From positions 1 to 64,000 of the forward strand of contig JBMFRC010000006.1 of NCBI GenBank assembly GCA_049968235.1: 64,000 bases of DNA, in the 5' to 3' direction. The position numbers were made by a program, and so were the translations under genes. Of the stretch, positions 9,786 to 51,744 are shown in pieces. The stretch's first letter is position 1. The number at the start of each line of letters is the position of its first letter. The stretch is from Candidatus Hydrogenedens sp. (GTDB taxonomy: Bacteria > Hydrogenedentota > Hydrogenedentia > Hydrogenedentales > Hydrogenedentaceae). The notes below the pieces were generated by a model. It was not told the DNA's origin. It did not search any database and was given only the letters and a program-made list of their open reading frames with translations.

Positions 9786-12206
9786 ATGTTAACACAAGAA
9801 CAAATCCACAAATTTACAGAAAAAATTCGTTTCAATTCTCAGAAGATTGAATCATTAATAAACTTTATTAATAAAGGATTGCACTTAGAATATATATACC
9901 ACTACTATCGAGATGAGATAGGCGTAGATAATTGGGGTTTTCTTACCCATATTATCGACGAATATAGAAAATTTGTAGAAATTGAGAATAAGAAAAACAG
10001 TGTATTAACACAATTAGAAAAGAATAACCTTTTAACCGAAGAATTAAAACAACTTATTTCTAATACATCGGATACTGCATTGTTAGATGATTTACTTCTT
10101 CCGTTGAAGAAAAAGAATCGTAGTCGTTCACAAAAACCTATACAGCAGGGATTGCAGGAATTAGCGGATTTTATATGGCAACAATTGCCTGTAAATCAGC
10201 CCATTGAAATAACCGCAGAAGCATTTGTGGAATCATCAAAATTATCTATTACTCCACAAGAAGCCATTGAAGGTGCTTTAATTATCCTTGCGGAAAGAAT
10301 TGAACAAGACTATAAAGCAAGAATGATTATTAAAGAAATGTTCTGGAGGAAAGGGCTTTTAGTCTCCACATCGACAAAAACAGCACAAAATCAAAAGACT
10401 CAATTTGAAGCCTTTTATAATTATTCGGAATCGATTCGTAAAATCTCTTCAATTCGTTTCCTTCAAATTTTAAGAGGAATGCGTTTAGGCTTCTTGAAAG
10501 TTAGTTTAGAAATTAATGAGGATGAAGCTATTGAAGAGTTAATCAAAATATATGTTAAAGATAAGGGAAGCGTATTTGAGCCTCTTATTCGTATAAGTGT
10601 ACAGGATGCTTTTCGCAAACAATTAAAAACGGTCTGTGAAAACAGAGTATTTATTGAATTAAAGGAAAATATAGAACAACAATTTATCTCTGAGTTGCGT
10701 GATGATTTAATAGATACATTAATGTTCCCCCCTGCAAATTTAGAAACTGTTATATCGATAATCCCCGGCATTGAGGAAGAATGGGCAGTGTGTGTTGTAG
10801 ACCGTGATGGCAATCTATTGGAATCTTCTCTTATTTTCCCGATGGCTCCTAGAAACGAAGTTAAGGAGGCACAGGATATTATCAAATTCTATATTGAAAG
10901 GTATCAATCAAAACATATTGTAATAGGAAACGGTGCAGGTGTTGATGAAGCCTTTCAATTTGTTGGTGAATTAGCCTCTCAATATACAAATCCGCGCGTT
11001 CGTTTTGTTACATTTGAGCAACGATTTGCTCAAAGTTTTGCCCATTCCAAAATGGCTGAAATTGATTTACCTAATCATTCCGAAAAGATACGGGAAGCAT
11101 ATTATCTTGCTCGTTACTTTAATTCTCCCCTAAAAGAACTTATAAAGTTAAATCTTTTAAGTTTACCTGAAGGTATTCTTCATAAAGAAATTAATGAAAG
11201 GAAATTTACTGCTGTTGCCCATCAAATAATCGAACATTGTATTAATAGCATAGGTGTTGACATTAATAAAGCCAGTATAAATGAGTTGCGTCATATTGCA
11301 GGACTAAAACACGATACCGCACAAAATATAATTGAATATCGAACTGCAAAAGGTGGATTTAAAAACCGTAAAGAACTCCTTGAAGTCCCCGGTATAGATG
11401 AAACTATATTTCAACAATGTGCAGGTTTTCTTTTTATAAAAAATGGAGATAATCCCTTAGACCAAACACGAATACATCCTCAATGGTATGAATATATTGA
11501 AACTGCGGTACAAGACTTAAATATTGAAATTCCGTCTTTATTCCGTTCATTTAAGAGTGCCAGAACATTAATACGACATCTTGAAACAAAAAATATACTC
11601 GGAAAACATGCAATAAGAACCATTCTAAAAGAGTTAAAGACACCAGGACGTGACCCACGAGGATATTTTGTTTTTCCAAGATATACCGAGGGGATTTATC
11701 GCGTATCTGATTTGAAGGTAGGTATGCAAACAGAAGGGATTATTAAGAAAATTTTAAATAATCTAATTGTGGTAGATATCGGAATTCCAATTGATGCAGT
11801 TATACATTTGAAAAATAATCCTTCATTAACAAAAACACTAAAAAGGAACTTGTTAGATAAGAAAATTGGAGAATTCTTAAAGGTTAATATCGAATCTATA
11901 GATTTCGATAATCAAAAAGTAATTTTAATACCTTATTTCCCTCCTAAAAAAGATAAAAAAGAAGAAGGGAAAAAAGAGAGGAAAGAAAAATCTTTTACCT
12001 CTAAGAAAGAGAATACAGCAGTTGGAACGGGTTTCAGAGACCTGCCAGTTAGCGAAAAGCCTAAATTTGATAGAAAGGTACCAAAATTTCAAAAACCTAA
12101 TATAGAAAAAGATATTAAGAAATCATCTTCTATTTTAGAGAATCAATTATTAAATACGCAATTAGCAGACCAATTAGCAATACTTAAAGATAAATTACAA
12201 CCTTAA
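9786..12206 (+). CDS. tex: Tex-like transcription accessory protein (YqgF/RuvC-like, HhH and S1 domains)
   Basis: It has a YqgF-like block (WAVCVVDRDGNLL...HIVIGNGAG), tandem HhH elements (INKASINELRHIAGL...ELLEVPGIDE) and an S1 domain (DLKVGMQTEGIIKKI). The C-terminal ~100 aa form a Lys/Glu-rich low-complexity tail. Confidence 0.8.
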   Translation: MLTQEQIHKFTEKIRFNSQKIESLINFINKGLHLEYIYHYYRDEIGVDNWGFLTHIIDEYRKFVEIENKKNSVLTQLEKNNLLTEELKQLISNTSDTALLDDLLLPLKKKNRSRSQKPIQQGLQELADFIWQQLPVNQPIEITAEAFVESSKLSITPQEAIEGALIILAERIEQDYKARMIIKEMFWRKGLLVSTSTKTAQNQKTQFEAFYNYSESIRKISSIRFLQILRGMRLGFLKVSLEINEDEAIEELIKIYVKDKGSVFEPLIRISVQDAFRKQLKTVCENRVFIELKENIEQQFISELRDDLIDTLMFPPANLETVISIIPGIEEEWAVCVVDRDGNLLESSLIFPMAPRNEVKEAQDIIKFYIERYQSKHIVIGNGAGVDEAFQFVGELASQYTNPRVRFVTFEQRFAQSFAHSKMAEIDLPNHSEKIREAYYLARYFNSPLKELIKLNLLSLPEGILHKEINERKFTAVAHQIIEHCINSIGVDINKASINELRHIAGLKHDTAQNIIEYRTAKGGFKNRKELLEVPGIDETIFQQCAGFLFIKNGDNPLDQTRIHPQWYEYIETAVQDLNIEIPSLFRSFKSARTLIRHLETKNILGKHAIRTILKELKTPGRDPRGYFVFPRYTEGIYRVSDLKVGMQTEGIIKKILNNLIVVDIGIPIDAVIHLKNNPSLTKTLKRNLLDKKIGEFLKVNIESIDFDNQKVILIPYFPPKKDKKEEGKKERKEKSFTSKKENTAVGTGFRDLPVSEKPKFDRKVPKFQKPNIEKDIKKSSSILENQLLNTQLADQLAILKDKLQP

Positions 12207-12256
12207 ACTTAATCAAGGATTTATCAAAATTTGACTTTCTTATAAGGAGTAACCTG

Positions 12257-12661
12257 ATGAAGAAAAAAAATACGACCTCGAAAGGCATAAATAAAAAAGA
12301 TTATAAATATTTTGAAACATTGCTGTTAACAGAGAGAAAAAAAGTTATTGAAAATCTAACAAATTTAGACACGACTGATTTAGTGGAAAAAAATTCGGGG
12401 ACAGGCGAAGATATATCTGATTATGCAGAAACGGGCACAGATGCTTTTGATATTCAAATTGCCCTGTCTCTGGCAAGTGGTGAATCTCAACAGTTACAAG
12501 AAATTGATGATGCATTAGGAAGAATCAAAAATAAAACTTATGGTATATGTGAAATGTGTAAAGAGCCTATCCCCCGAAAAAGATTAGAGGTACTTCCTCA
12601 TGCTCGGTTTTGTATACAATGTCAAAGTGAGTATGAGAAACAACAAGATTCCCAATACTAA
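12257..12661 (+). CDS. DksA/TraR-family C4-type zinc-finger protein
   Basis: 134 aa with a C-terminal CxxC-(17)-CxxC motif (CEMCKEPI...CIQCQ) and an acidic coiled-coil N-terminal half. Confidence 0.7.
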   Translation: MKKKNTTSKGINKKDYKYFETLLLTERKKVIENLTNLDTTDLVEKNSGTGEDISDYAETGTDAFDIQIALSLASGESQQLQEIDDALGRIKNKTYGICEMCKEPIPRKRLEVLPHARFCIQCQSEYEKQQDSQY

Positions 12662-12682
12662 TATCCTTTTACAATTTATATT

Positions 12683-13519
12683 ATGTATCCTACACTCTTA
12701 GAATTTGGCTGGATTAAAATACATAGTTATGGTTTATGTATCGCCATAGCTTTTTTATTATCTTTATATCTTACCCAACGCGATGCACGAAAACGCGGAA
12801 TTGACCCGGATATTATTCAAAGCGAAGCTATATTTGCACTTCTTGCCGGTATTATAGGAGCACGTTTTTTCCACATTATCATGTTCCCTTATGAGTACTC
12901 TTTAACCAACCCCATCGGTTGGATTGCGTTATGGCAAGGTGGACTTGTATTTCAAGGAGCTCTTCCTTTCGCTTTCGGTTATGTTATCTGGGCAATGCGT
13001 CGAAAGAAAGTTTCTTTCTTATTAGTATCAGACTGTGCAGTTCCTTATTTAGCCTTAGGACAAGGGATTGGTAGAATAGGTTGTTTTTTTAATGGTTGTT
13101 GTTATGGGAAACCCTCCAATCTCCCCTTTGCCATCTCCTTCCCTGAAGGCTGTCCTGTTTACCAGTCTTATCCTGGAAATAATGGATGGTCTCTCCCTGT
13201 TCATCCCACGCAACTTTATGCAGTAGTGGGGCTTGTTTTCCTTTGTGTATTATTGATATATCTTCGGGATGAATGGAATCCCATTACAGGTTTTACCATT
13301 CCTGAATATTTCTTTTTACATGGCATTCTCCGATTTATCAACGAATTTTTCCGTGGAGACCATAATCCTACCGTGCTTGGTTTTGGGGTTTTAACCGACC
13401 AACAAATGTTTTGTATCATCGAGATTCTATTAGGAATTTTTCTCTTCTGGCTAATTCGAACCTATCATATAATTCAAAAAGATTTCACAGAACTACAAAA
13501 AAGCCCTAAGAAAAAATAA
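12683..13519 (+). CDS. lgt: Prolipoprotein diacylglyceryl transferase
   Basis: 278 aa membrane protein carrying the Lgt signature G-R-I-G-C-F-x-N-G-C-C-Y-G. Confidence 0.88.
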   Translation: MYPTLLEFGWIKIHSYGLCIAIAFLLSLYLTQRDARKRGIDPDIIQSEAIFALLAGIIGARFFHIIMFPYEYSLTNPIGWIALWQGGLVFQGALPFAFGYVIWAMRRKKVSFLLVSDCAVPYLALGQGIGRIGCFFNGCCYGKPSNLPFAISFPEGCPVYQSYPGNNGWSLPVHPTQLYAVVGLVFLCVLLIYLRDEWNPITGFTIPEYFFLHGILRFINEFFRGDHNPTVLGFGVLTDQQMFCIIEILLGIFLFWLIRTYHIIQKDFTELQKSPKKK

Positions 13520-13582
13520 CCTTTTACCTATCTCATTTTTTATAATATTATAATCATATTAATTTTATAAGTAGGTCCCATC

Positions 13583-15517
13583 ATGTCAGTTCAAGAACCA
13601 AAAATAAGAATACTTCCTGAAGAGATAACAAATAAAATCGCTGCGGGAGAAGTTGTTGAAAAACCGGCATCTGTAGTTAAAGAACTTATTGAAAATAGTA
13701 TAGATGCCGGTGCCAAACATATTACAATTCGTCTATCTGCATCAGGTTTAAGACTCATCGAAATTATTGATGATGGTATTGGAATGTCAGAACAGGATGC
13801 AATTCTTGCTATAGAGAGACACGCAACAAGTAAGATTACAACGTCTAAGGACCTTGAATCGATACATACCTTTGGATTTCGTGGTGAAGCATTAAGTAGT
13901 ATTTCAGCGGTATCACAGTTCGTTTTAACCACAAAACGCTCGCAAGATAACACCGGCACACAAATTGTCGTTCATGGAGGCATATTAAAATCCGTCTCCC
14001 CGATAGGTAGCCCACAAGGAACTAAGATATCGGTAAATCGTCTTTTTTTTAATACGCCTGTAAGATTAAAATTTTTAAAAGGTTTAACAACGGAATTAAG
14101 TCATTGTATTGACATCGTCCAGAAATATGTCCTTTCTCATGAAAATATCGGATTTAAACTATTTCACAATGATAAACTTCTTTTTGATATACCTCCTGAC
14201 ATGAATTTGTATAATCGTATCTCTCTTATTTGGGGTAAATCTACGATTTCTGAGATGCTTCATATAAAACCGATAACACATAACCTCTTCTCTAATGAAT
14301 CTGAAATGGTACCTGTTCATATTTATGGATACATTGGATTGCCTTCGCTTACCCGTTCCCATCGTTCCCATCAGTTATTTTTTGTCAATAAAAGACCTAT
14401 TTATAGTCGAACTTTACAATATAGTCTGGAAGAAGCATATAGAAACCTTATTATGGTTGGAAGGTATCCTGTGGCTATTCTTTTTATAGAACTTCCCCCA
14501 CAATGGATTGATGTCAATATTCATCCTACAAAAAAAGAAATTAAATTTAGAGATGAAAGAATTATTTCAAAACATATTTCAACCACTCTTCGTAATCAGT
14601 TATCTTTGATTCCGGACCAGAAACATTACACTTCCTCGCAAATAAATATACAAACAACCATAAATCGCCACATAAACCCTACTGTCTCTTCTAACGATAA
14701 TATAGATACTCCATCGGTATTTTTAAATAAACTTAATAATCATACACTTCCTGAAATTACTAAGGATTTAGTAGAAAATGAAAAAATAGAAACTCAACAA
14801 AAAAGTATATCCTTCGATACTAACCTCTTCTCTAATACAGAAAGAGATGATGTCTCTACTTCTTATTTTGATGATACACAAGAACAGCAGGAGCCTACTA
14901 CCCTTCACCCCTCGCCTATTTTTTCTGAATTTATTCCCGGAGAGGAAATACCCATACAAGTCTTTGATTCTTATTTAGTTCTACCTGAGAAAGACCGTAT
15001 TTTAATTATTGACCAACATGCACTTCATGAACGACTAAATTTTGAGCAGTTAAAGAAACAATTGCAAAATAAGGATTTTGTATTTCAACGGCTTGTTATA
15101 CCGCTTCTTATTGAAGTTCCATCGAATTATTCAAAACTTTTAGAAGATAAAAAAGAAATATTTCAGAAGATAGGTATTGATATTGAACCGTTTGGAGAGA
15201 ACACATTTCAAATAACATCTATATGTGAATTATATGACGAGGGTAAAATAAAAGATACTATTTTTGAACTACTTGAAGAAATGGTGCAGGGAGATTTATT
15301 TGAAAAAGAAAATTATTTTGAATCCCTATTGAGTATTGCAACAAAAGCATGTAAGAAATCGGTCAAGGCAGGTGATAAATTAGAACCTATGGAGCGATTA
15401 TACTTAATTAAGGGATTTAAATCATTAACACCTCCTTATACATGCCCTCATGGAAGACCCATTTTAATAGAATTAACCTTGCAACAAATGGAAAAAAGTT
15501 TCCGGAGAAGGCAATAA
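13583..15517 (+). CDS. mutL: DNA mismatch repair protein MutL
   Basis: N-terminal GHKL ATPase motifs (ILPEEITNKIAAGEVVEKPASVVKELIENSIDAGA; GFRGEALSSI) and a C-terminal dimerisation domain. Confidence 0.95.
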   Translation: MSVQEPKIRILPEEITNKIAAGEVVEKPASVVKELIENSIDAGAKHITIRLSASGLRLIEIIDDGIGMSEQDAILAIERHATSKITTSKDLESIHTFGFRGEALSSISAVSQFVLTTKRSQDNTGTQIVVHGGILKSVSPIGSPQGTKISVNRLFFNTPVRLKFLKGLTTELSHCIDIVQKYVLSHENIGFKLFHNDKLLFDIPPDMNLYNRISLIWGKSTISEMLHIKPITHNLFSNESEMVPVHIYGYIGLPSLTRSHRSHQLFFVNKRPIYSRTLQYSLEEAYRNLIMVGRYPVAILFIELPPQWIDVNIHPTKKEIKFRDERIISKHISTTLRNQLSLIPDQKHYTSSQINIQTTINRHINPTVSSNDNIDTPSVFLNKLNNHTLPEITKDLVENEKIETQQKSISFDTNLFSNTERDDVSTSYFDDTQEQQEPTTLHPSPIFSEFIPGEEIPIQVFDSYLVLPEKDRILIIDQHALHERLNFEQLKKQLQNKDFVFQRLVIPLLIEVPSNYSKLLEDKKEIFQKIGIDIEPFGENTFQITSICELYDEGKIKDTIFELLEEMVQGDLFEKENYFESLLSIATKACKKSVKAGDKLEPMERLYLIKGFKSLTPPYTCPHGRPILIELTLQQMEKSFRRRQ

Positions 15518-40682: not shown

Positions 40683-41216
40683 CTATTTTATTTTTACAGA
40701 TTCCGTTAACTTTATTCCATATTCAAATACTTCTTTATTCTGGTCATGGACTTTCCTGGGTAAATTAGAAAATATTGCATTTTGCCAGCATTCATAGGGA
40801 ATATTCATGTAATTACTTAAAGCACCTAAGAGACATATATTAAAATTTTTTTGATTTACAGGCAGATATTTTTCTCCTTTGAGAAGTGATAGTTCCCTAC
40901 TTTCTCCGACAATAAGAGAAATATCTATCACGATCCCATCTGGTTTTAACCGATACAAATTGTTTTCCAATTCGTCAGGATGCATTAAAACAAGAAAATC
41001 TGCCTCTCCATATGGAACCATAGGGCTAAAAACCTTTTTCCCGAAACGCACATCACTGGATACAGAGCCCCCTCGTTGACTCATACCATGTATTTCACTT
41101 TTTCGGACATCATATCCAGCAAGAAACGCTGAATCCGCCAGGATATTTGAAGATAAAATAACTCCAGTTCCACCAATACCTGTTAAGACAATATTAATTA
41201 CTTCCTGTTGCGACAT
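40683..41216 (-). CDS. iorB: Indolepyruvate:ferredoxin oxidoreductase, beta subunit
   Basis: 177 aa with an IorB/PorG-like fold (INIVLTGIGGTGVILSSNILA...GMSQRGGSV). It lies immediately downstream of iorA. Confidence 0.75.
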   Translation of the reverse strand: MSQQEVINIVLTGIGGTGVILSSNILADSAFLAGYDVRKSEIHGMSQRGGSVSSDVRFGKKVFSPMVPYGEADFLVLMHPDELENNLYRLKPDGIVIDISLIVGESRELSLLKGEKYLPVNQKNFNICLLGALSNYMNIPYECWQNAIFSNLPRKVHDQNKEVFEYGIKLTESVKIK

Positions 41217-42822
41217 TCGATTTTTCTCCTGTTGTCTGTTGTATTTCAGTTTTTTGTTGTTTCTTTCTTAACAAGGCACATGTTTTTCTCATAACAATAA
41301 GATTCGTCTTGTTATTATCAAGAGCTTCTTCCAACGTTTTTTTGAGAACAGAAACACGATCAGTAACAACTACATTTTCCACTCCGATGGCTTTTGCAAT
41401 ATCTTCAATTACTACTTGATTCGTTGGTTCATGATTTAATTTTTTACCCGTGCCTGGATGCTCTTGCATACCTGTCATTGCAGTTGTATTATTGTCAAGG
41501 ACAATAATGATATGTCCTGTTGGAGGTGGATTGTAAACCATTTCCACGACACCGGGCAAACCACTATGGATAAAAGTGCTGTCTCCGATTACACTAACCA
41601 CTTTCTTTGCTTCTTCAGGTGGCAATGAGTGTCTTAAACCAAGCCCAACGGTAATACTGGCACCCATACAAACACACGAGTCCATAGTCTGAAAAGGAGG
41701 CAATACACTTAAAGTATAACAACCGATATCACCTGTAACGATACAGTTCATTTTCCCTAACAAAGTAAAGGTTGCTCTATGTGGACAACCATCACATAAT
41801 CTTGGTGGTCTTTCTCGTTTTATCGGTGGTTCTGGCGAAATATCCCCTTTCAGAATTCGGCGTACCCTATTAACATTCAGTTCTCCAAAACGATACATTT
41901 CTGGCTTTTCTTCCACAGGGATACCATAATATCGACAATTTTCTACTAAAAATGGGTCTCCTTCCTCGATGACTATGCACCTTTTATGTTTTTGCACAAA
42001 ATGACGAACTTTCTCTTCGGGAAATGGATAACACATCCCTATTTTCAAAACAGAAGCATTCGGTTCCGCTTCCAGAACATGGAGATATGAGACACCGGAG
42101 GTTATAATTCCTAACTCTTCAGATTTAATTTCTTCTTTATTAAGTTTACAGATTTCATTCCATTTCTTTATTTGTGCCAATTTTTCTCTTAACTTTCTAT
42201 GTGCCGGTCTTGCATAACCAGGAATCATAACCCTCCCCGGTTTATCTGGATTATATTTAACAGGTAATACGGGGCTGTATTTCTTTTCTTCATATTCCAC
42301 AATAGACATCGAATGACATACTCTTGTAGTGGGTCTGAGTATAACAGGCAACTTCCATTCCTTTGAAAGACGAACTGCTTCAAAAAAGAAATCATAACAT
42401 TCTTGACTATCACATGGTTCCAACATCATTAGCCCTGCAGAACGGGCATAATTGCGGTTATCCTGTTCATTCTGACTGGAATGCATATCAGGGTCATCAG
42501 CAGAGATAATAACAAGAGCACCTTCAACACCTGTATAAGCCACAGTAAATAATGGGTCCGATGCTACATTTAGACCCACATGTTTCATTGTCACCAAAGC
42601 ATGTCCGCCGGCAAAAGCAACGCCAATACCCACTTCGAGAGCTACTTTTTCATTTGGACACCACTGTGCCTTACCACCATACTCTGAAAAATACTCTAAA
42701 ATCTCTGTTGAAGGTGTTCCAGGATAACCCGTCCCCAAAGTAATCCCGGAATGAATCCCTGCTAATGCAATCGCCTCATTTCCAAACATTAATTTTTTCA
42801 TAACACTACTCCCAAAAATCAA
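41194..42822 (-). CDS. iorA: Indolepyruvate:ferredoxin oxidoreductase, alpha subunit
   Basis: N-terminus FGNEAIALAGIHSGITLGTGYPGTPSTEILEYF, a TPP-binding GDSTF...DNNTTAMTGMQ region and the Cys cluster CDGCPHRATF. Confidence 0.8.
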   Translation of the reverse strand: MIFGSSVMKKLMFGNEAIALAGIHSGITLGTGYPGTPSTEILEYFSEYGGKAQWCPNEKVALEVGIGVAFAGGHALVTMKHVGLNVASDPLFTVAYTGVEGALVIISADDPDMHSSQNEQDNRNYARSAGLMMLEPCDSQECYDFFFEAVRLSKEWKLPVILRPTTRVCHSMSIVEYEEKKYSPVLPVKYNPDKPGRVMIPGYARPAHRKLREKLAQIKKWNEICKLNKEEIKSEELGIITSGVSYLHVLEAEPNASVLKIGMCYPFPEEKVRHFVQKHKRCIVIEEGDPFLVENCRYYGIPVEEKPEMYRFGELNVNRVRRILKGDISPEPPIKRERPPRLCDGCPHRATFTLLGKMNCIVTGDIGCYTLSVLPPFQTMDSCVCMGASITVGLGLRHSLPPEEAKKVVSVIGDSTFIHSGLPGVVEMVYNPPPTGHIIIVLDNNTTAMTGMQEHPGTGKKLNHEPTNQVVIEDIAKAIGVENVVVTDRVSVLKKTLEEALDNNKTNLIVMRKTCALLRKKQQKTEIQQTTGEKSNVATGSN

Positions 42823-42905
42823 TTAAAATAACAAATAATACAATAAAGGGGGTATTATAATAATTTCCATTCATATTATTCCATTAGAAATCCATATAAA
42901 TTGTA

Positions 42906-44324
42906 CTACACAACAAATAAGTTCTTTGTCATTCGATAAAGATAAATAGGAACATATCTTATAAGTGATAAAGGTCGGGGATAAATTTTTAGTAATCTGT
43001 AAATTCTATTTGGCCTTAAAAAGAACTGTCTATTTGCTTTTCGCTGGTAATAGAAAAGAACATCATCAGGTAAGTCAGTAAGATTAATTCTCACACCAGC
43101 AAAATCTATGTTCATATAATCAAAATTCTTCAATTTTTCCGGTTTATTTTGTTTAAGCCACTCAAATAATGGTGTTCCTGGGAAAGGTACCACCGTAAAA
43201 AAACTTGCAGTATGTAACATCGAATTTGTTGCAATATCTATTGTCATTTGAAGTTCTTCTTCTGTTTCTGTCGGGAAACCCATCATACAAAAGCCATTAG
43301 CATATACCCCTTTATTGACCATTATTTCTATTCCTTTTATAAATTTTGGAATATCAAGATTTTTACAGGTAAACTTTTGCATTCGTGGTGAACCTGTTTC
43401 TAAAGCAAAAGAAGACATATAAGTTCCTGCGGAGCATAAAGCCTCCGCAATATCTTCTGTAACTAAATCCCCTCTAATCGCATTGGGAAATGTTAATTTA
43501 ATATTTAATCCTTTTTGTCTCACTAATTCAGAAAATTGTATTACCCTCTGTTTGTTAAAATTAAAATTATCATCAAGAAATTCAAATTCATTAACACCAT
43601 ATTTGTGGTTTAACCATTCAATTTCTTCAATAATTCGTTCAGGTGAACAAAATCGTATCTTTTTCCCAAATATAGAATGACACCACATACACTGGTATGG
43701 ACAACCTCTACTAGTAACTAAACACATATACTTTCTTGGAGGTAAAGGGGTCATAGATTGTAAACCCCAGTATTGCTGTATATTAATTAAATCGTATTCA
43801 GGAAACGGAAGTTTATCCAAATCCGGTTCAACTGGTAATAACCCCGGATTTTCTATAACTTCCTCTGTTTCATCTTTCCATATTATCCCTGAAATATTTT
43901 TAAGATTCTTTTTATGTGGATAACTTTCCACGATTTGCTTAAATGCTATTTCACCTTCTCCTGGCACCACTATATCTAAATGCCTGCAGTCTGAAAAAGC
44001 CTGTACCTTTACAGATGAAGCATGTGGACCACCTAAAACAATCCAACAATTAGGAAGTGATTCTTTTATTTTTTCAGCGATTAGGGGTATCAAACCTGCA
44101 AAAACTGTAGATGATGATAAGCCAACAATATCCGGTAAAAACTGATATATTTCTTTTGTTAGTTCTTTAGGTGTATCATTTTTTACTTTTTGATTGATTA
44201 ATTTTATTTCTACATCTTTAATTTCCCTTTTTAAATAGCCTGCAAGATACATAATTCCCATAGGTGGTGTAGCCAATGGATACATCGGTTTCCTATACCC
44301 CAGATTTATCAATACTATCTTCAT
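42906..44324 (-). CDS. B12-binding-domain radical SAM enzyme (class B rSAM-like), paralogue A
   Basis: 472 aa. It has an N-terminal cobalamin-binding Rossmann-like domain and a CxxxCxxC motif (GCPYQCMWC). Its central ~370 aa are identical to the neighbouring paralogue. Its 80-aa C-terminal tail and 20-aa N-terminus are unique. Confidence 0.8.
   Translation of the reverse strand: MKIVLINLGYRKPMYPLATPPMGIMYLAGYLKREIKDVEIKLINQKVKNDTPKELTKEIYQFLPDIVGLSSSTVFAGLIPLIAEKIKESLPNCWIVLGGPHASSVKVQAFSDCRHLDIVVPGEGEIAFKQIVESYPHKKNLKNISGIIWKDETEEVIENPGLLPVEPDLDKLPFPEYDLINIQQYWGLQSMTPLPPRKYMCLVTSRGCPYQCMWCHSIFGKKIRFCSPERIIEEIEWLNHKYGVNEFEFLDDNFNFNKQRVIQFSELVRQKGLNIKLTFPNAIRGDLVTEDIAEALCSAGTYMSSFALETGSPRMQKFTCKNLDIPKFIKGIEIMVNKGVYANGFCMMGFPTETEEELQMTIDIATNSMLHTASFFTVVPFPGTPLFEWLKQNKPEKLKNFDYMNIDFAGVRINLTDLPDDVLFYYQRKANRQFFLRPNRIYRLLKIYPRPLSLIRYVPIYLYRMTKNLFVV
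43147..44268. repeat. Direct repeat copy 1 (~1.12 kb, virtually identical to 44731..45852)
   Basis: Nucleotide-level identity was observed by eye along the whole core. Only one difference was noticed (CATTCGTGGTG vs CATTCGCGGTG), and it is synonymous. The period is 1584 bp. Confidence 0.9.
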
Positions 44325-44489
44325 TTATTCCTCATAAAGTATTCAATATATTTTATAACATTCTAAATAATATATTACTTCCTGAATAATTAAAATTATA
44401 TGCTTTTTTTTATAATAGTTAAGCACCACTATTTAGAATTGCTTCTTTATATAAGGATATGGTTCTAATATTGTATTACACTTTATGAT

Positions 44490-45914
44490 TTATTTTACAA
44501 TAATTCCTTTCAATAATCGCTGTAATAGCATAGGAAAATACATAGTAAGATGTAATGGATGAGGATAAATTTTGATAATTCTATATATTCTATCAGGTTT
44601 AGAGAAAAACTTTATGTATGCTCTCCGTTGATATTTATAAAATACTTCATCTGGAAGGTCTGTTAAATTAACTTTGATACTCCCATATTCTGCATTATTG
44701 TAATTTATATTTTTAACCTTATTCGGGCGATTTTGTTTAAGCCACTCAAATAATGGTGTTCCTGGGAAAGGTACCACCGTAAAAAAACTTGCAGTATGTA
44801 ACATCGAATTTGTTGCAATATCTATTGTCATTTGAAGTTCTTCTTCTGTTTCTGTCGGGAAACCCATCATACAAAAGCCATTAGCATATACCCCTTTATT
44901 GACCATTATTTCTATTCCTTTTATAAATTTTGGAATATCAAGATTTTTACAGGTAAACTTTTGCATTCGCGGTGAACCTGTTTCTAAAGCAAAAGAAGAC
45001 ATATAAGTTCCTGCGGAGCATAAAGCCTCCGCAATATCTTCTGTAACTAAATCCCCTCTAATCGCATTGGGAAATGTTAATTTAATATTTAATCCTTTTT
45101 GTCTCACTAATTCAGAAAATTGTATTACCCTCTGTTTGTTAAAATTAAAATTATCATCAAGAAATTCAAATTCATTAACACCATATTTGTGGTTTAACCA
45201 TTCAATTTCTTCAATAATTCGTTCAGGTGAACAAAATCGTATCTTTTTCCCAAATATAGAATGACACCACATACACTGGTATGGACAACCTCTACTAGTA
45301 ACTAAACACATATACTTTCTTGGAGGTAAAGGGGTCATAGATTGTAAACCCCAGTATTGCTGTATATTAATTAAATCGTATTCAGGAAACGGAAGTTTAT
45401 CCAAATCCGGTTCAACTGGTAATAACCCCGGATTTTCTATAACTTCCTCTGTTTCATCTTTCCATATTATCCCTGAAATATTTTTAAGATTCTTTTTATG
45501 TGGATAACTTTCCACGATTTGCTTAAATGCTATTTCACCTTCTCCTGGCACCACTATATCTAAATGCCTGCAGTCTGAAAAAGCCTGTACCTTTACAGAT
45601 GAAGCATGTGGACCACCTAAAACAATCCAACAATTAGGAAGTGATTCTTTTATTTTTTCAGCGATTAGGGGTATCAAACCTGCAAAAACTGTAGATGATG
45701 ATAAGCCAACAATATCCGGTAAAAACTGATATATTTCTTTTGTTAGTTCTTTAGGTGTATCATTTTTTACTTTTTGATTGATTAATTTTATTTCTACATC
45801 TTTAATTTCCCTTTTTAAATAGCCTGCAAGATACATAATTCCCATAGGTGGAGATATAACGCGATATAGGAAAGAACTCCTTCCCATATTTACTAATATT
45901 ATCCTACTTTTCAT
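44490..45914 (-). CDS. B12-binding-domain radical SAM enzyme (class B rSAM-like), paralogue B
   Basis: 474 aa with the same core as paralogue A. Its C-terminal tail is divergent (RPNKVKNINYNNAEYGSIKVNL... versus KPEKLKNFDYMNIDFAGVRINL...). Confidence 0.8.
   Translation of the reverse strand: MKSRIILVNMGRSSFLYRVISPPMGIMYLAGYLKREIKDVEIKLINQKVKNDTPKELTKEIYQFLPDIVGLSSSTVFAGLIPLIAEKIKESLPNCWIVLGGPHASSVKVQAFSDCRHLDIVVPGEGEIAFKQIVESYPHKKNLKNISGIIWKDETEEVIENPGLLPVEPDLDKLPFPEYDLINIQQYWGLQSMTPLPPRKYMCLVTSRGCPYQCMWCHSIFGKKIRFCSPERIIEEIEWLNHKYGVNEFEFLDDNFNFNKQRVIQFSELVRQKGLNIKLTFPNAIRGDLVTEDIAEALCSAGTYMSSFALETGSPRMQKFTCKNLDIPKFIKGIEIMVNKGVYANGFCMMGFPTETEEELQMTIDIATNSMLHTASFFTVVPFPGTPLFEWLKQNRPNKVKNINYNNAEYGSIKVNLTDLPDEVFYKYQRRAYIKFFSKPDRIYRIIKIYPHPLHLTMYFPMLLQRLLKGIIVK
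44731..45852. repeat. Direct repeat copy 2 (~1.12 kb)
   Basis: See copy 1. The ORF-track duplicates 43483..43680 and 45067..45264 (identical 65-aa antisense ORFs) are by-products of this repeat. Confidence 0.9.
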
Positions 45915-45956
45915 AATAGAAATAATACTCCCTTATATTTTCCTAATTTTTTACCT

Positions 45957-48032
45957 TTACCTATTTAACAATACTTCTAAACTATCTCCTAAAGGGAAAA
46001 GGCAAGATTTATTCAATTTTTTACAATAATTATATATGTAACTTTTACTCCTATATTCTATCAATGGTTTAATAAATTTTTTTAATACCTCTTTTTCTTT
46101 ATATGCTATGGTAAGGTAATGTTCACAATCATCATTTTTTTTATTCATATAACAAATAATAGATTTCAACAAATATATGTCTCCAAATCGAGGATATTTA
46201 CTCAAAAGGTAATCACACATTTTGTCTGCAATATAATAATGTCCATCTTTTATTAATCCTGAAATTGTATAAATATTAATCCACGATAATATAGGCCAGG
46301 TAGCAATATATTTTTGAAGAATATATAGGTTTTCTCTTTTCGCTTTTTCGTTGTTCGAAACAATACCTATTTCATCCAATAATTTATCATAATTAATATT
46401 GTTTGTATTTATAAGGACATCACAGGTATTTTTTCCCACATTCCTAAAATTTTTTGCAACTTGACCTATATATAAATTATATTGACCCGGGTATACTTTC
46501 CAGTATACATCCAAACTATTATTATTAATACACTCTGTCAACTTAGCAATAGGGTCAGAATTATAAATAGCATATAATGTTATTGGCTCAATAACTATCC
46601 ATATCCTATTTTTTTCGTTTTCATTTAATTTTTCTTTTATTTCTTCCATTGCTCCGAATAAAGTAAAAAAAGATTGATATTTCAGGTCATTCCTTTTTAT
46701 ATAAATCTTATTTATATCCCAGAATGTGGTTGTTCTTTGTCCCAGAATAATGTCATTTAACCCTGCATTCGCCTCTATAAACTCCGTTGCATTTTTATAA
46801 TCCGTTCTATTCTTAAATGATATAAAACTAACACATTGTCCTAAATAAACAGACATTAAAAGAATTGCAAGAAAATATGACAGTATTTTAGGATTAAATT
46901 TAAAGATAATCGCAGAAGATATGATATAAATCAATGGTAAGGCATAGTAGTTATACAAAGGATGGAAAACAGGTTTATGGGTAATAACTACAATACTTAA
47001 TAATGATATAACGGGAACAAGTAAAGATAAAGTAATAAAAACTTCTCCCCTATTTTTTATATCCTTATTTTGTTTTATTTTCCATAAAATACTTAAAATA
47101 TAAATAATTGTTGTTATCACAAAAATTCCAAGAATGAAATAATCGAGAACAAATATTTTTCTTACCAATATACTTAAAATAAGGCTATCTATATTCAGGA
47201 TATTTGTCTTCCATGCAGGGATTAATTCCTCAGATATTCCAACACTATCAAAACCGAATAATCTATAAAATAATACTTTTATTTCAGTCCCTCCTCTACT
47301 GTCTATAACATTAAATAAAAATGGAGACATTTTGATATACCAAATTATCCATGGAATAACAGATAAAATGGACAGCACAGACCACAACATTTTTTTTCTT
47401 AGTAACGGTTTTGGAAAACTAAAAAGAAGTACAGGAATTTGGAACAATGGTGTTAGAACATATATCGCATGGAACCATGGCAAAATCAAATTGGAAATGA
47501 AACTAACAAGACACCACTTCCAGTTTTCTTTCTTATGGCTAAAATACATCCACAATCCTGAAAAAGAAAGAATAGCAAAAAATTGAATAAATGCATAACA
47601 TTTCAGTTCTTGATGAAACCATATATTAAAAGGAGATAAACAGAAAAGTAAACAGGCAAGGAAAGATGCTTTTCTTCCTACCAATAATTTTCCAAGAAAA
47701 TAGGTCGTTACAATTGCTAAAACACCAAAGGTTATGGGTAATACCCTCCATAACCAATCGATTTCTGGAAATAAATTTATCCAGTAATACAGAATAAAAG
47801 CAGAGGCAGGGGATATACCATAATCAGGACTATTGATATATAAAAGTCTAAAATAATCAAGTATATTACAAAATTTCGCATTACCAATGACTACATATTC
47901 ATCAAACCAAACCGATTGTTCATTTAATTTATATAAACGAAATATAAAGGAAAGAAAAATTATAACTATAATATATAATAAATCACTTTTAGTAAATTGT
48001 TCTCTGGCATTTTTAGTTTGATTCGTTTGCAT
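45957..48032 (-). CDS. GT-C fold membrane glycosyltransferase (family 39/83-like, ArnT/PMT-type) with C-terminal TPR-like domain, paralogue 2
   Basis: 691 aa with more than 10 TM helices. The first extracytoplasmic loop carries RLYKLNEQSVWFDEY, an ArnT/PMT-type DE motif. The C-terminal ~150 aa are soluble and helical-repeat-like. Confidence 0.65.
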   Translation of the reverse strand: MQTNQTKNAREQFTKSDLLYIIVIIFLSFIFRLYKLNEQSVWFDEYVVIGNAKFCNILDYFRLLYINSPDYGISPASAFILYYWINLFPEIDWLWRVLPITFGVLAIVTTYFLGKLLVGRKASFLACLLFCLSPFNIWFHQELKCYAFIQFFAILSFSGLWMYFSHKKENWKWCLVSFISNLILPWFHAIYVLTPLFQIPVLLFSFPKPLLRKKMLWSVLSILSVIPWIIWYIKMSPFLFNVIDSRGGTEIKVLFYRLFGFDSVGISEELIPAWKTNILNIDSLILSILVRKIFVLDYFILGIFVITTIIYILSILWKIKQNKDIKNRGEVFITLSLLVPVISLLSIVVITHKPVFHPLYNYYALPLIYIISSAIIFKFNPKILSYFLAILLMSVYLGQCVSFISFKNRTDYKNATEFIEANAGLNDIILGQRTTTFWDINKIYIKRNDLKYQSFFTLFGAMEEIKEKLNENEKNRIWIVIEPITLYAIYNSDPIAKLTECINNNSLDVYWKVYPGQYNLYIGQVAKNFRNVGKNTCDVLINTNNINYDKLLDEIGIVSNNEKAKRENLYILQKYIATWPILSWINIYTISGLIKDGHYYIADKMCDYLLSKYPRFGDIYLLKSIICYMNKKNDDCEHYLTIAYKEKEVLKKFIKPLIEYRSKSYIYNYCKKLNKSCLFPLGDSLEVLLNR

Positions 48033-48036
48033 ATCA

Positions 48037-50130
48037 TTATCTATTTTTCAAAAGAACAGATAGTATGGATTTATTCAATATATGATAGCCCTTTTGTTCT
48101 AATTCTTGAATGAGCAACACATCCTTATCTCCTATTCCAGAGATATTTCCTCCGTTCCACAAGTTTTTATACATATCCTTAAAAATATAATTATTTCTAA
48201 AAATACCCTCTATTATTTTTCGGGATTCATCTTGTTTGTGTTTAGAAAATAAAATTAATCCTTTTAATAATATTACATGATAGAATTCCGGAGATTTATT
48301 TATAAGATAATCACATATTTTCTCTGCAACATCTATATCTCCATTCTGTATCATCGAATTTATAATTAAAATATAATTATATGAATAAAAAGGTTGCCAA
48401 ATAGCGAAGTATCTTTGAAGTATTTCTTTTCTTCGTTGCTTTTCTATCTCATCGTTAACTTTCATTTGAAACTCTTCTATAAGGTTATCATAATCTATTT
48501 CGCCAAAGGGGCAATTTTGAATCTTTTCTTTATTAATATTTTTGTAAGAGTCCTTCTCTATTCTTAAAACATAGAGGTTAAACTTTCCCGGGAAGTGTTT
48601 TATATTCACATTAAAACCATGAGGAGATAAATTCTTTACTAATATAAATGTTGGATCTTTCTTATAAATCCATGTAATTAATGTTGTTTCCATTAATACC
48701 CATATTGAGTTACTAATCTTTTCTTCCTCCAGTGAAAGTGTGTCAACTACTGTATCAGCAATAGCCTGCAAAGAAAATACAGGATTTAATGAGTAGTCAA
48801 CTCTTTTTTTGTATACCTTCCATGTGTCAAAAACATTGGCTCCTAATTGTAGGTCAAGAACGATATCTCCTTTTTTCACATTCTCTTCCATATATGCTAC
48901 TGCCCTTTTATAATCGGGTCTTAAATTAAAATTTATAAAACCTAAACATTGAAAGGTAAATAAAAAAATAATCATTACTAAAAAAGTGGCTTTAATTAGA
49001 TGTTTATCCCATATAAAAATAGAATACGCAATAATAAGGTATAGAAACGCAAAAGCATGATAGAAATATAAAGGTAGAAAAAATGATTTCCCTGTAATAA
49101 CTCTCAAAGTAAAAAAAGGAAGTATAGAAAAGACAAAAGAATAAAGTAGCAAATACTTTTTTATTTCTCCACACTCTTTTCGCAAATTTGGTATATTTTT
49201 TACCAAATATAAACAGAACACAATAAAAAGAAAAATAGTCGATATAAATAATAAATAGTCAATAAATACCCATTTGTTTAATAAATTATCCCATATTGTG
49301 TTTCTAACTATTTCGACTGTATTTGTTTTCCAATACGGTAATAATTCATTAGAAAGACCAACACAATCAATTCCGAATAAACTTGTCACAATAAATTTTA
49401 TATTTAATGATTCCATTTCAGTAAGAGAAAGATTATATGCAGGTGGTTTTATCCAGAATATCCACAAAATGTAAGGAATTAAAACGGCAATATTTGCTAT
49501 TCCACATAAGATAGTGTCCCTAACTTTATTCTGTCTTGTAAACCATATCAACAAAAAAAACTGTATAAATGGAACTGCAAAATATACAGCATGGAACCAG
49601 GGAAGCAATAAATTAGATAGTGTTCCTATAAAAAACCATTTCTTACTTTTGCCACTACTAATGTAATTTAGAAAGGCAAACCATGATAGTAAAGAAAGGA
49701 ATAGTATAAAAGCATATCCTTTCAGTTCCTGGTGAATATAAATGTTAAATGGTGATAATACCATCAATAACCCTGCAAGAAAGCCAACCTTCCAGTCTTT
49801 TACCCATTTCCCAAGAAAATAAAGAAGTACTATAGACAGAACTCCAAAGCAGATAGGTAAAAGCCTCCATAGCCAGATATTATCCGGAAAAATATGTATC
49901 CAAAAATAATATAGAACTAACCCTCCCGGTGAAATCCCATATTCAGGGACATTTATAAACAGTAATTTAATATTTGTCCACAAATCACATATTTTGATAT
50001 TTGCTATATATACATATTCTTCATGCCATATAGACTGTTCTGTAATACGGTATAATCGCAAAGCAAAAGCAATAAGAATTAGAATAATTAGGAGAAATAT
50101 ATCTCTGTATTTGGAAATGTAATCATTCAA
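48037..50130 (-). CDS. GT-C fold membrane glycosyltransferase (family 39/83-like, ArnT/PMT-type) with C-terminal TPR-like domain, paralogue 1
   Basis: 697 aa. It carries RLYRITEQSIWHEEY and is roughly 40-50% identical to the downstream paralogue throughout. The two genes are 4 bp apart. Confidence 0.65.
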   Translation of the reverse strand: MNDYISKYRDIFLLIILILIAFALRLYRITEQSIWHEEYVYIANIKICDLWTNIKLLFINVPEYGISPGGLVLYYFWIHIFPDNIWLWRLLPICFGVLSIVLLYFLGKWVKDWKVGFLAGLLMVLSPFNIYIHQELKGYAFILFLSLLSWFAFLNYISSGKSKKWFFIGTLSNLLLPWFHAVYFAVPFIQFFLLIWFTRQNKVRDTILCGIANIAVLIPYILWIFWIKPPAYNLSLTEMESLNIKFIVTSLFGIDCVGLSNELLPYWKTNTVEIVRNTIWDNLLNKWVFIDYLLFISTIFLFIVFCLYLVKNIPNLRKECGEIKKYLLLYSFVFSILPFFTLRVITGKSFFLPLYFYHAFAFLYLIIAYSIFIWDKHLIKATFLVMIIFLFTFQCLGFINFNLRPDYKRAVAYMEENVKKGDIVLDLQLGANVFDTWKVYKKRVDYSLNPVFSLQAIADTVVDTLSLEEEKISNSIWVLMETTLITWIYKKDPTFILVKNLSPHGFNVNIKHFPGKFNLYVLRIEKDSYKNINKEKIQNCPFGEIDYDNLIEEFQMKVNDEIEKQRRKEILQRYFAIWQPFYSYNYILIINSMIQNGDIDVAEKICDYLINKSPEFYHVILLKGLILFSKHKQDESRKIIEGIFRNNYIFKDMYKNLWNGGNISGIGDKDVLLIQELEQKGYHILNKSILSVLLKNR

Positions 50131-51667: not shown

Positions 51668-51744
51668 GTTCCCGTAGCTCAATTGGATAGAGCGCTTGGC
51701 TACGGACCAAGAGGCTGGGGGTTCAACTCCCTCCGGGAACGCCA
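51668..51744 (+). tRNA. tRNA-Arg (anticodon ACG)
   Basis: Cloverleaf folded by hand. Acceptor GTTCCCG/CGGGAAC. D-arm GCTC-AATTGGATA-GAGC. Anticodon stem CTTGG/CCAAG with loop CTACGGA. T-arm GGGGG-TTCAACT-CCCTC. Discriminator G and an encoded CCA. Confidence 0.88.

What the first reader, a model, noticed from the sequence alone, without database searches (positions are those of the whole stretch)
43147..45852. Two tandem B12-radical SAM genes share a virtually identical 1.12 kb nucleotide core but have unrelated termini
Bases 43147-44268 and 44731-45852 (period 1584 bp) look identical nucleotide for nucleotide. I noticed a single synonymous difference. The core encodes about 370 identical residues: the whole cobalamin-binding domain and the radical SAM core including CxxxCxxC. 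The first ~20 codons and last ~80 codons differ between the paralogues at both DNA and protein level. The neighbouring GT-C paralogues are only about 45% identical. The rSAM cores are therefore far more uniform than expected for old tandem paralogues. Possible explanations are very recent duplication with recombination at the borders, ongoing gene conversion that homogenises the catalytic core while the tails stay distinct, or an assembly artefact. If real, it is a natural domain-swap experiment: one catalytic core with two alternative C-terminal substrate-recognition or partner-docking modules.
Basis: seen in the sequence. Interest (0 to 1): 0.8.

Follow-up and report, generated by a model that had tools for sequence, protein, structure and literature searches.

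The report
Recent gene conversion between tandem genes
Two neighbouring, anciently duplicated vitamin-B12-dependent radical SAM enzyme genes in a Candidatus Hydrogenedens genome share an almost identical 1.12 kb middle because one gene recently overwrote the other's core. This is a clean example of gene conversion, an ordinary, well-known process, not a new kind of system.

Summary
The repeat is real. Window 43146-44267 equals 44730-45851 (1122 nt, offset 1584) apart from one synonymous difference at 43386/44970. Both genes lie on the minus strand: rSAM-A at 42906-44324 and rSAM-B at 44490-45914. The termini are diverged homologues, not unrelated.

Three other Hydrogenedens lineages carry the same B-A tandem pair, but only 66-71% identical in DNA, with a longest exact run of 29 nt or less. 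Both window cores are A-type: 90% aa identity to the sister species' A orthologue against 72% to its B. The head and tail of rSAM-B are B-type (tail 84% to sister B, 50% to sister A). Core dS between the copies is 0.004, against 0.43 to the sister orthologue and about 2.8 in the tails.

This is therefore one recent A-to-B gene conversion, ending in the conserved PPMG and FEWLKQN motifs. It is not a fresh duplication, and no other lineage shows homogenisation. Two further MAGs of the same species carry a single B-head/core/A-tail gene, which is either a collapsed assembly or a real deletion between the repeats.

An artefact is unlikely, but reads could not be checked. Fixed paralogue-specific residues are four times denser in the termini than in the core. 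Interest is modest. The conserved, uncharacterised rSAM/GT-C pairing may be the better lead.

The parts
42906..44324 (-). rSAM-A: class B (B12-binding) radical SAM gene, 472 aa; donor of the converted tract
   Evidence: ORF. Pfam B12-binding and Radical_SAM hits above cut-off. 90% aa identical along its whole length to the sister-species A orthologue P0003. It is NCBI protein MGC8738152.1.
44490..45914 (-). rSAM-B: class B radical SAM gene, 474 aa; recipient, now a B-head / A-core / B-tail chimera
   Evidence: ORF and Pfam hits. Diagnostic nucleotide sites read B-type up to alignment column 59, A-type over columns 76-1003, and B-type from column 1201. It is MGC8738153.1.
43146..44267 (-). Repeat copy 1: native A core, 1122 nt, aa 20-393 of A
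   Evidence: In 90-nt windows it is 73-99% nt identical to the sister A orthologue, highest (about 92-99%) over codon-alignment columns 586-1125.
44730..45851 (-). Repeat copy 2: converted core inside rSAM-B, aa 22-395 of B
   Evidence: Core is 90% aa identical to sister A and 73% to sister B. dS to copy 1 is 0.004.
43386..43386 (-). The only difference between the copies, A-copy allele (CCA Pro). Its partner is 44970 in the B copy (CCG Pro).
   Evidence: The A allele matches the sister A orthologue and the two single-copy MAG contigs. The B allele matches none of the six orthologues, so it is most likely a mutation that arose after the conversion.
42906..43145 (-). A-type C-terminal tail (aa 394-472): an extended linker followed by three helices
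   Evidence: 88% aa identical to the sister A tail and 49% to the window B tail. Secondary structure from the AF2 model.
44490..44729 (-). B-type C-terminal tail (aa 396-474)
   Evidence: 84% aa identical to the sister B tail and 50% to the sister A tail. dN/dS against sister B is 0.12. It carries the B-specific EYGSI motif.
44268..44324 (-). A-type head (aa 1-19), beta-strand 1 of the B12-binding Rossmann domain
   Evidence: 94% identical to the sister A head. Model shows strand E2-7.
45852..45914 (-). B-type head (aa 1-21)
   Evidence: 50% identical to the sister B head against 33% to sister A. Diagnostic sites at columns 48, 57 and 59 are B-type. The junction of this head to the A-type core appears in three assemblies.
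44325..44489 (-). Intergenic spacer between rSAM-B and rSAM-A. Together with the B tail and A head it forms the 462-nt unique segment that forces a two-copy topology.
   Evidence: Sequence. This segment is absent from the single-copy contigs L025 and L026.
45957..50130 (-). Two GT-C-like membrane glycosyltransferase paralogues upstream (45957-48032 and 48037-50130), 36% identical and not homogenised
   Evidence: Weak PMT_2, Agl23 and mannosyltransferase hits, all below cut-off. BLASTP between them. Orthologues elsewhere carry precomputed PF13231 hits.

Best explanation
The tandem pair rSAM-B / rSAM-A is an old duplication that predates the split of several Candidatus Hydrogenedens species. In the lineage of this MAG, a single recent non-reciprocal recombination event (intrachromosomal or sister-chromosome gene conversion) copied 1.12 kb of rSAM-A over the matching part of rSAM-B.

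The tract ends fall in two short stretches that the paralogues already shared: the PPMG motif at the 5' end and FEWLKQN at the 3' end. This is the pattern expected if a double-strand break or gap in B was repaired from A, with homology needed only at the two ends. That mechanism is inferred, not shown.

The result is a chimeric rSAM-B: its own first beta-strand, an A-type B12 domain and radical SAM barrel, and its own C-terminal linker and three-helix tail. rSAM-A is unchanged. One synonymous mutation has since accumulated in the B copy.

The resulting 1.1 kb perfect direct repeat is now a substrate for deletion, or for assembler collapse. That accounts for the single B-head/core/A-tail gene in two other MAGs of the same species.

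The core was probably exchangeable because A and B cores differ at only nine fixed, conservative positions. The fixed radical differences (DFAG[A/V] against EYGSI at aa 407-411, plus Y/Q at 463) lie in the unconverted tail.
For: Shown:
- 1121 of 1122 nt are identical, and the one difference is synonymous.
- The same B-A tandem pair exists in the sister species (L027-L032, L035, L036), in Ca. H. terephthalaticus and relatives (L002, L039-L041) and on contig FWWL01012887 (L033). Identity there is only 66-71% nt, with a longest exact run of 29 nt or less.
- Segment identities: both window cores are 90% aa identical to sister A and 72-73% to sister B. The WinB tail is 84% to sister B and 50% to sister A. 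The WinA tail is 88% to sister A.
- Diagnostic sites give WinB a B|A|B mosaic and WinA an almost wholly A-type pattern.
- dS: core A-B 0.004; WinA-sisA core 0.43; other paralogue pairs' cores 1.4 or more; window tails 2.8. Tail dN/dS against orthologues is 0.08-0.12.
- The tract borders coincide with paralogue-conserved motifs. A 16-nt exact run between WinA and sister B sits at the 3' border.
- The B-copy SNP allele is derived.
- L025 and L026, from two other MAG assemblies, are 99.96% identical to the window. They show the same B-head to A-type-core junction and continue into the A tail.
- Fixed paralogue-specific residues occur at 0.10 per site in head and tail against 0.024 in the core.
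Against: No reads were available, so the two-copy structure with identical cores rests on one assembly, a 171,865-bp MAG contig.

The core to B-tail junction is seen only in that contig. No other contig of this species turned up in the metagenome collection.

Recombination between sequences about 30% diverged is expected to be very rare in bacteria (general knowledge of RecA and mismatch-repair barriers). The event is therefore unusual, and its mechanism is inferred only.

A roughly 45-nt patch (codon-alignment columns about 415-460) looks B-like in both copies. The history may therefore involve more than one event.
Confidence: 0.85

Rival explanations
1. Assembly artefact. The genome has only one gene (B-head/core/A-tail, as in L025 and L026), or two diverged genes. 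The identical second core was then produced by mis-joining strains, by loop over-expansion, or by polishing that homogenised the paralogues.
For: Two MAGs of the same species assemble a single chimeric gene. The core to B-tail junction is seen in only one contig. Read and coverage data are unavailable.
Against: - The 462-nt B-tail / spacer / A-head segment is genuine Hydrogenedens sequence, orthologous to the same segment in sister genomes. It has to be flanked by a core on both sides.
- Any assembler needs reads that join A-type core to the B tail.
- In relatives, A and B cores share exact runs of 29 nt or less (18 nt or less in the sister species). That is too short for a k-mer mis-join, and paralogues about 30% diverged are too different for bubble-popping or polishing to merge (inference).
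- The copies differ by one SNP, so they were not simply pasted.
- The B-head to A-core junction is reproduced in three assemblies.
Confidence: 0.07
2. Recent tandem duplication of one gene, followed by rapid divergence or replacement of the termini.
For: The cores are near-identical.
Against: - The tandem pair is present, with both types, in three other lineages.
- The head and tail of rSAM-B group with B orthologues (tail 84% aa to sister B).
- Tail dS between the window copies is saturated at 2.8, while tail dN/dS against orthologues is 0.08-0.12.
- A more distant Hydrogenedentota genome (L062) has a single rSAM gene, which places the duplication deep in the clade rather than recently.
Confidence: 0.02
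3. Sustained concerted evolution. Repeated bidirectional conversion keeps the catalytic cores homogenised over long periods, while selection keeps the tails distinct.
For: A short B-like patch lies inside the otherwise A-type core of both window copies, which hints at an earlier B-to-A event. Paralogue-specific residues concentrate in the tails.
Against: None of the other neighbouring pairs shows a homogenised tract. Cores in the three other Hydrogenedens lineages have dS of 1.4 or more. One tract with one SNP is a single recent event. With a single event, selection on where the tract ends cannot be demonstrated.
Confidence: 0.06

Closest known systems
Gene conversion between the duplicate tuf genes (tufA/tufB) of Salmonella
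   Same: Non-reciprocal transfer between two paralogous protein-coding genes on one bacterial chromosome. It gives near-identical tracts bounded inside the gene (PMC5485169 abstract).
   Different: The tuf copies are kept nearly identical along their whole length by continual conversion. By my own knowledge they are distant and inverted on the chromosome. Here the paralogues are adjacent direct repeats that were about 30% diverged. Only the middle 79% of the gene was converted, apparently once, and the relatives are not homogenised.
Domain-level conversion between the old paralogues RF1 and RF2 (class-I release factors) in Bacteroidia and Chloroflexi
   Same: Partial conversion between anciently diverged, functionally distinct paralogues. 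It is restricted to the region whose function the two share, while the specificity-determining parts keep their identity. It was detected by sliding-window and phylogenetic incongruence (PMC4530459 abstract).
   Different: The RF conversions are old and were inferred phylogenetically. This one is so recent that only one synonymous change separates donor and recipient. The genes are tandem, and the functions of the paralogues are unknown.
Class B (cobalamin-dependent) radical SAM enzymes with solved structures: MgmA (9ccb), AprD4 (6fd2), TsrM (6wte), OxsB (5ul2), TokK (7kdx), CysS (9n1b)
   Same: The architecture matches: an N-terminal Rossmann B12-type domain, a CxxxCxxC radical SAM barrel and a C-terminal helical region. 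Foldseek E values are about 1e-20 and TM-scores 0.64-0.72. The profile hits the same PDB entries.
   Different: Sequence identity is only 16-20%. No NCBIfam equivalogue reaches its cut-off: the best are ApyD at 164 bits against a 750 cut-off and BchE at 142 against 481. Substrate and reaction are unknown. The family is characteristically paired with GT-C membrane glycosyltransferases, which I do not know to be the case for any of the solved enzymes (my own knowledge).

Membership tests
Gene conversion / concerted evolution between paralogues | Within a tract, the paralogues are more similar to each other than either is to its orthologue | tested here: met
   Core: A against B is 100% aa with dS 0.004. 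WinA against sister A is 90% with dS 0.43. WinB against sister B is 73% with dS 1.4.
Gene conversion / concerted evolution between paralogues | Outside the tract, each copy keeps its orthologous affinity (phylogenetic incongruence along the gene) | tested here: met
   WinB tail is 84% to sister B and 50% to sister A. WinA tail is 88% to sister A. Diagnostic sites give a B|A|B mosaic in WinB.
Gene conversion / concerted evolution between paralogues | Non-reciprocal: the donor is unchanged and only the recipient is altered | tested here: met
   WinA is A-type from head to tail, apart from a short ambiguous patch. WinB has lost its B-type core, and no B-type core remains in the window.
Gene conversion / concerted evolution between paralogues | The duplication predates the homogenised tract (both paralogues present and diverged in outgroups) | tested here: met
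   B-A pairs with 66-71% nt identity occur in the sister-species loci (L027 and others), in L002 and L039-L041, and in L033.
Gene conversion / concerted evolution between paralogues | The structure is physically real on one molecule (reads or amplicons span the junctions; twofold depth of the tract) | not testable with these tools
   No reads were available. Indirect support only: the B-head/A-core junction appears in three assemblies, and no contig of this species was found in the metagenome collection.
Class B cobalamin-dependent radical SAM enzymes | CxxxCxxC motif in a radical SAM domain | tested here: met
   C207-x3-C211-x2-C214 (CPYQCMWC) is invariant in 105 homologues. PF04055 scores 65.6 bits against a 29.5 cut-off.
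Class B cobalamin-dependent radical SAM enzymes | N-terminal B12-binding Rossmann-type domain | tested here: met
   PF02310 scores 53.3 bits against a 32.1 cut-off. The AF2 model (pLDDT 94.5) aligns with MgmA, TsrM, OxsB, TokK and CysS.
Class B cobalamin-dependent radical SAM enzymes | Actually binds cobalamin and carries out methyl transfer or another radical reaction | not testable with these tools
   This needs biochemistry. AprD4, one of the two closest structures, has the fold but by my own knowledge does not use cobalamin.
Specific named equivalogues (BchE, HpnJ, ApyD, PhpK, MCR Gln methylase) | Score at or above the curated NCBIfam cut-off | tested here: not met
   ApyD 164 against 750; BchE 142 against 481; HpnJ 121 against 578; MJ_0865 84 against 360. 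The 'BchE' names given by JGI to homologues are therefore generic.
GT-C fold glycosyltransferases (the two upstream genes) | Match to a GT-C family profile (PMT_2, YfhO or ArnT-like) above cut-off | tested here: inconclusive
   In the window, PMT_2 scores 21.7 bits against a 26.1 cut-off for one paralogue and gives no hit for the other. NCBIfam hits are weak. Orthologous or neighbouring genes in other loci carry precomputed PF13231 or PF09586 hits.

The most novel reading that the evidence does not exclude
The window's chimeric rSAM-B (B-head/A-core/B-tail) and the single B-head/A-core/A-tail gene of two sibling MAGs are real, functional natural domain swaps. They lie in a widespread, uncharacterised envelope-modification module made of a B12-radical SAM enzyme and a GT-C glycosyltransferase, found in Hydrogenedentota and Planctomycetota. 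On this reading the catalytic core is generic, and the C-terminal linker and helices (aa 407-411 DFAG[A/V] against EYGSI, and others) alone set the substrate or GT-C partner. Selection then limits conversion to the core, and the species is polymorphic for one or two copies.
Probability: 0.15. Interest if true: 0.55.

Novelty: new member of a known kind. Interest (0 to 1): 0.3.

Why it matters
This is an unusually clean snapshot of bacterial gene conversion between diverged tandem paralogues:
- donor, recipient, direction and both borders are identifiable;
- the event is dated to about 1% of the synonymous divergence from the sister species;
- the predicted follow-on product, deletion or collapse between the new repeats, is seen in sibling MAGs.

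In practice, it warns that short-read MAGs of this species may misreport the locus as one chimeric gene. It also shows which residues distinguish the two paralogues, since they cluster in the tail. That is a starting point for working out what this uncharacterised rSAM/GT-C module does. It does not reveal a new mechanism.

Tried and rejected
- Exact look-ups of both window proteins among gene positions found nothing. The cluster look-up later showed they are NCBI MAG proteins on a 171,865-bp contig.
- An exact 38-mer from the unique B-tail segment found no metagenome contig. A protein-based metagenome scan returned only other species. No independent two-copy assembly of this species was therefore obtained.
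- Literature searches found nothing for Hydrogenedentes with radical SAM and glycosyltransferase, for cobalamin rSAM with GT-C, or for the MAG accessions.
- Rfam found no riboswitch or other RNA near the locus, only RNase P RNA and one tRNA elsewhere.
- The promoter and terminator scan gave nothing above shuffled expectation on the coding strand. The four terminator-like hits are on the non-coding strand, and they are two sites duplicated by the repeat.
- Rejected, 'unrelated termini': the termini align and group with orthologues.
- Rejected, recent duplication.
- Rejected, a third copy or a mobile element: there is no other repeat in the window.
- Tail-to-active-site contacts could not be measured because the model coordinates are not exposed to scripts.
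Full report
**1. The observation**

An offset comparison at 1584 nt shows window 43146-44267 identical to 44730-45851. The single mismatch is 43386 T against 44970 C. BLASTN gives 99.911% and finds no other repeat in the 64 kb window.

Both genes are on the minus strand: rSAM-A at 42906-44324 (472 aa) and rSAM-B at 44490-45914 (474 aa). The mismatch is CCA against CCG, Pro in both. The identical tract is 374 codons, aa 20-393 of A and 22-395 of B. It spans the B12-binding domain (PF02310) and the radical SAM domain (PF04055), including CPYQCMWC.

The termini differ but are not unrelated. The tails align without gaps at 49% aa identity and roughly 55-75% nt identity. The heads are about 28% aa identical. 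The neighbouring GT-C-like paralogues are 36% identical, not about 45%.

**2. Source and relatives**

Both window proteins exist as NCBI MAG proteins, MGC8738152.1 and MGC8738153.1, from 'Candidatus Hydrogenedens sp.', on a contig of 171,865 bp. Homologues are named Hydrogenedens, Hydrogenedentes or Planctomycetota.

The same gene order occurs in a sister species: AGE-type 2-epimerase, GT-C, GT-C, rSAM of 475 aa, rSAM of 472 aa, then IOR alpha/beta and a ROK kinase (L027-L032; flanks 77-81% nt identical to the window). The sister species carries an extra inverted insert, described in section 8. The tandem pair is also present in Ca. H. terephthalaticus (L002), its relatives (L039-L041) and contig FWWL01012887 (L033). 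A more distant Hydrogenedentota genome (L062) has the same synteny but a single rSAM gene. The duplication is therefore old within the Hydrogenedens clade.

**3. What the repeat is**

Across every other neighbouring pair of this family that I could collect, the two genes are 49-72% identical in DNA, with a longest exact run of 32 nt or less. The Hydrogenedens B-A pairs are 66-71% identical with runs of 29 nt or less. The window pair is 91% identical with an 881-nt exact run.

| Segment | Comparison | aa identity |
|---|---|---|
| Core | either window copy vs sister A | 90% |
| Core | either window copy vs sister B | 72-73% |
| Tail | WinA vs sister A | 88% |
| Tail | WinB vs sister B | 84% |
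| Tail | WinB vs sister A | 50% |
| Head | WinB vs sister B | 50% |
| Head | WinB vs sister A | 33% |

I took nucleotide sites that are fixed and different between three A orthologues and three B orthologues. At those sites WinA reads A-type almost throughout. WinB reads B-type up to alignment column 59, A-type over columns 76-1003, and B-type from column 1201.

Synonymous divergence tells the same story:

| Comparison | dS |
|---|---|
| Window cores, A vs B | 0.004 |
| WinA core vs sister A core | 0.43 |
| Cores of the paralogue pairs in relatives | 1.4 or more |
| Window tails, A vs B | 2.8 |

The tails remain under purifying selection against their own orthologues, with dN/dS of 0.08 for A and 0.12 for B.

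The repeat is therefore a non-reciprocal A-to-B replacement of the B core, that is, gene conversion. It happened within roughly the last 1% of the synonymous divergence from the sister species. At the one differing site, the A allele matches sister A. The B allele matches none of the six orthologues, so it is most simply a mutation that arose after the conversion.

**4. Borders and mechanism**

The 5' border lies in CCACCTATGGGA (PPMG). The 3' border lies in TTTGAGTGGCTTAAACAAAAT (FEWLKQN). Both are among the few stretches conserved between the A and B types. WinA and sister B share a 16-nt exact run exactly at the 3' border.

The tract has no mosaic of mismatch-corrected patches. I infer repair of a break or gap in B using A as template, anchored by short homology at the two ends (synthesis-dependent strand annealing or gap repair). 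This step is inference and is not shown. Recombination between sequences about 30% diverged is expected to be rare, by general knowledge of RecA homology requirements and mismatch-repair barriers, so the event is unusual in degree but not in kind.

A roughly 45-nt patch (codon-alignment columns about 415-460, encoding ..KNLKNISGIIWK..) resembles B orthologues more than A orthologues in both window copies. This is a weak hint of an earlier small B-to-A event. It could equally reflect fast change in the sister A gene.

**5. Is it an assembly artefact?**

Reads were not available. Several arguments speak against an artefact.

- The 462-nt unique segment 44268-44729 (B tail, spacer and A head) is bona fide orthologous sequence. 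It must have a core on each side.
- The B-head to A-type-core junction recurs, without a single mismatch, in two other assemblies. These are L025 (GCA_049969095.1) and L026 (GCA_049971155.1), both 99.96% identical to the window and sharing two private SNPs.
- In relatives, A and B cores share exact runs of 29 nt or less, 18 nt or less in the sister species. A k-mer mis-join, or polishing that homogenises a genuinely B-type core, is therefore implausible. This last point is inference.

L025 and L026 carry one gene, P0001, which is exactly B-head + core (with the A allele) + A-tail. This is the product expected either from assembler collapse of the 1.1 kb repeat or from a real deletion by recombination between the repeats. 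I cannot tell which. Either way, it requires the B head to be joined to an A-type core in that population.

The core to B-tail junction is documented only in the window contig. Two metagenome scans found no further contig of this species. I put the artefact reading at about 7%.

**6. The proteins**

An AlphaFold2 model of rSAM-A, built with 105 homologues, has mean pLDDT 94.5. The head (aa 1-19) is beta-strand 1 of the Rossmann-type B12 domain. The tail (aa 394-472) is an extended linker (about 394-418, with lower confidence at 401-410) followed by three helices.

Foldseek places the model among class B radical SAM enzymes: MgmA, AprD4, TsrM, OxsB, TokK and CysS (E about 1e-20, TM 0.64-0.72, 16-20% identity). 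A profile search of PDB sequences recovers the same set. No NCBIfam equivalogue comes near its cut-off, so this is an uncharacterised class B subfamily.

Comparing three A with three B orthologues gives 19 fixed type-specific residues. Nine are in the 373-residue core, and all are conservative (I/V, A/S, K/E, N/D, M/L and similar). Eight are in the 79-residue tail, including DFAG[A/V] against EYGSI at 407-411 and Y/Q at 463. Two are in the head. The density is thus 0.10 per site in the termini against 0.024 in the core.

With only one conversion event, selection on the tract borders cannot be shown. The tail's role in substrate or partner recognition is inferred from what is known of C-terminal domains in solved class B enzymes, which is my own knowledge.

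**7. Comparison with known cases**

The phenomenon is ordinary gene conversion. The best-studied bacterial example is tufA/tufB in Salmonella (PMC5485169). The closest analogue in logic is the conversion of the shared domain 3 between the old paralogues RF1 and RF2, which leaves the specificity domains untouched (PMC4530459).

This case differs in that the genes are tandem, the event is extremely recent, and it is accompanied by a putative deletion or collapse product in sibling MAGs. I classify it as a new member of a known kind and score interest at about 0.3.

**8. Seen in passing**

- *rSAM/GT-C pairing.* This rSAM family is repeatedly adjacent to GT-C-fold membrane glycosyltransferases (PMT_2 or YfhO), often with overlapping stop and start codons. 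This holds in Planctomycetota, Phycisphaerae and Hydrogenedentota, with several modules per genome. I found no literature on the pairing. My best guess, at low confidence, is a cobalamin-dependent radical modification of a polyprenyl-phosphate-linked sugar or envelope glycoconjugate handled by the GT-C partner.
- *Frameshifted B orthologue.* The sister species' B orthologue carries the same 1-nt frameshift deletion in two independent assemblies. This suggests that B can be lost.
- *Extra insert in the sister species.* An inverted GT-C + rSAM + sulfatase insert lies between rSAM-A and IOR in the sister species and is absent from the window.

Noticed in passing
L063 8001-15013; L065 8001-17434; L062 3518-9449; window 42906-50130: This roughly 477-aa B12-radical SAM family is recurrently paired with GT-C-fold membrane glycosyltransferases (PF13231 PMT_2 or PF09586 YfhO). 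Stop and start codons often overlap, for example rSAM 8001-9434 with PMT_2 9418-11397 in L063. The pairing occurs in Planctomycetota, Phycisphaerae and Hydrogenedentota, with several modules per genome. No curated family or paper that I could find describes it. It looks like an uncharacterised conserved two-gene module.
   Followed up: partly
L025 2539-3963 and L026 587-2011 (GCA_049969095.1, GCA_049971155.1): Two MAGs of the same species are 99.96% identical to the window and share two private SNPs, at window 41813 and 41455. They carry a single chimeric gene, B-head + core + A-tail (P0001), where the window has two genes. This is either a collapsed assembly or a real deletion allele.
   Followed up: partly
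L034 148-1574 and L038 3882-5308 (sister species): The sister species' rSAM-B orthologue has the same 1-nt deletion (TATAATT to TAT-ATT, about 190 nt into the gene) in two independent assemblies, ERZ27257437 and ERZ795045. The deletion frameshifts the gene. Other assemblies of that species have it intact. B may be dispensable or decaying in some strains.
   Followed up: partly
L027 11521-17384 against the window 42823-42905 junction: The sister species has an inverted insert between rSAM-A and the IOR alpha gene: a GT-C-like gene (698 aa), a more distant B12-rSAM (524 aa, 29% identical) and a sulfatase-family protein (672 aa). The window lacks this insert.
   Followed up: no
L062 (GCA_017880035.1) 2164-14441: A more distant Hydrogenedentota genome keeps the whole synteny: epimerase, two GT-C genes, rSAM, IOR, a ROK kinase and a 468-aa protein. 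It has only one rSAM gene, and its IOR alpha is split into two ORFs.
   Followed up: no
window codon-alignment columns about 415-460 of both rSAM genes (roughly 43870-43915 and 45454-45499): A roughly 45-nt patch inside the otherwise A-type core resembles B orthologues (sister B and the L033 B gene) more than A orthologues. It may be a trace of an earlier, short B-to-A conversion.
   Followed up: partly
window 40683-42822: Indolepyruvate:ferredoxin oxidoreductase alpha and beta genes sit immediately downstream of the rSAM pair, on the same strand, throughout the clade. NCBIfam IOR alpha scores 540 bits, below its 651 cut-off. This could be coincidental synteny or a local source of reduced ferredoxin for the radical SAM clusters (speculation).
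   Followed up: no
window 2322-2687 (+) and 51668-51741 (+): Bacterial RNase P class A RNA (311 bits) and one tRNA. These are the only Rfam matches in the window, and there is no cobalamin riboswitch near the B12-dependent genes.
   Followed up: no
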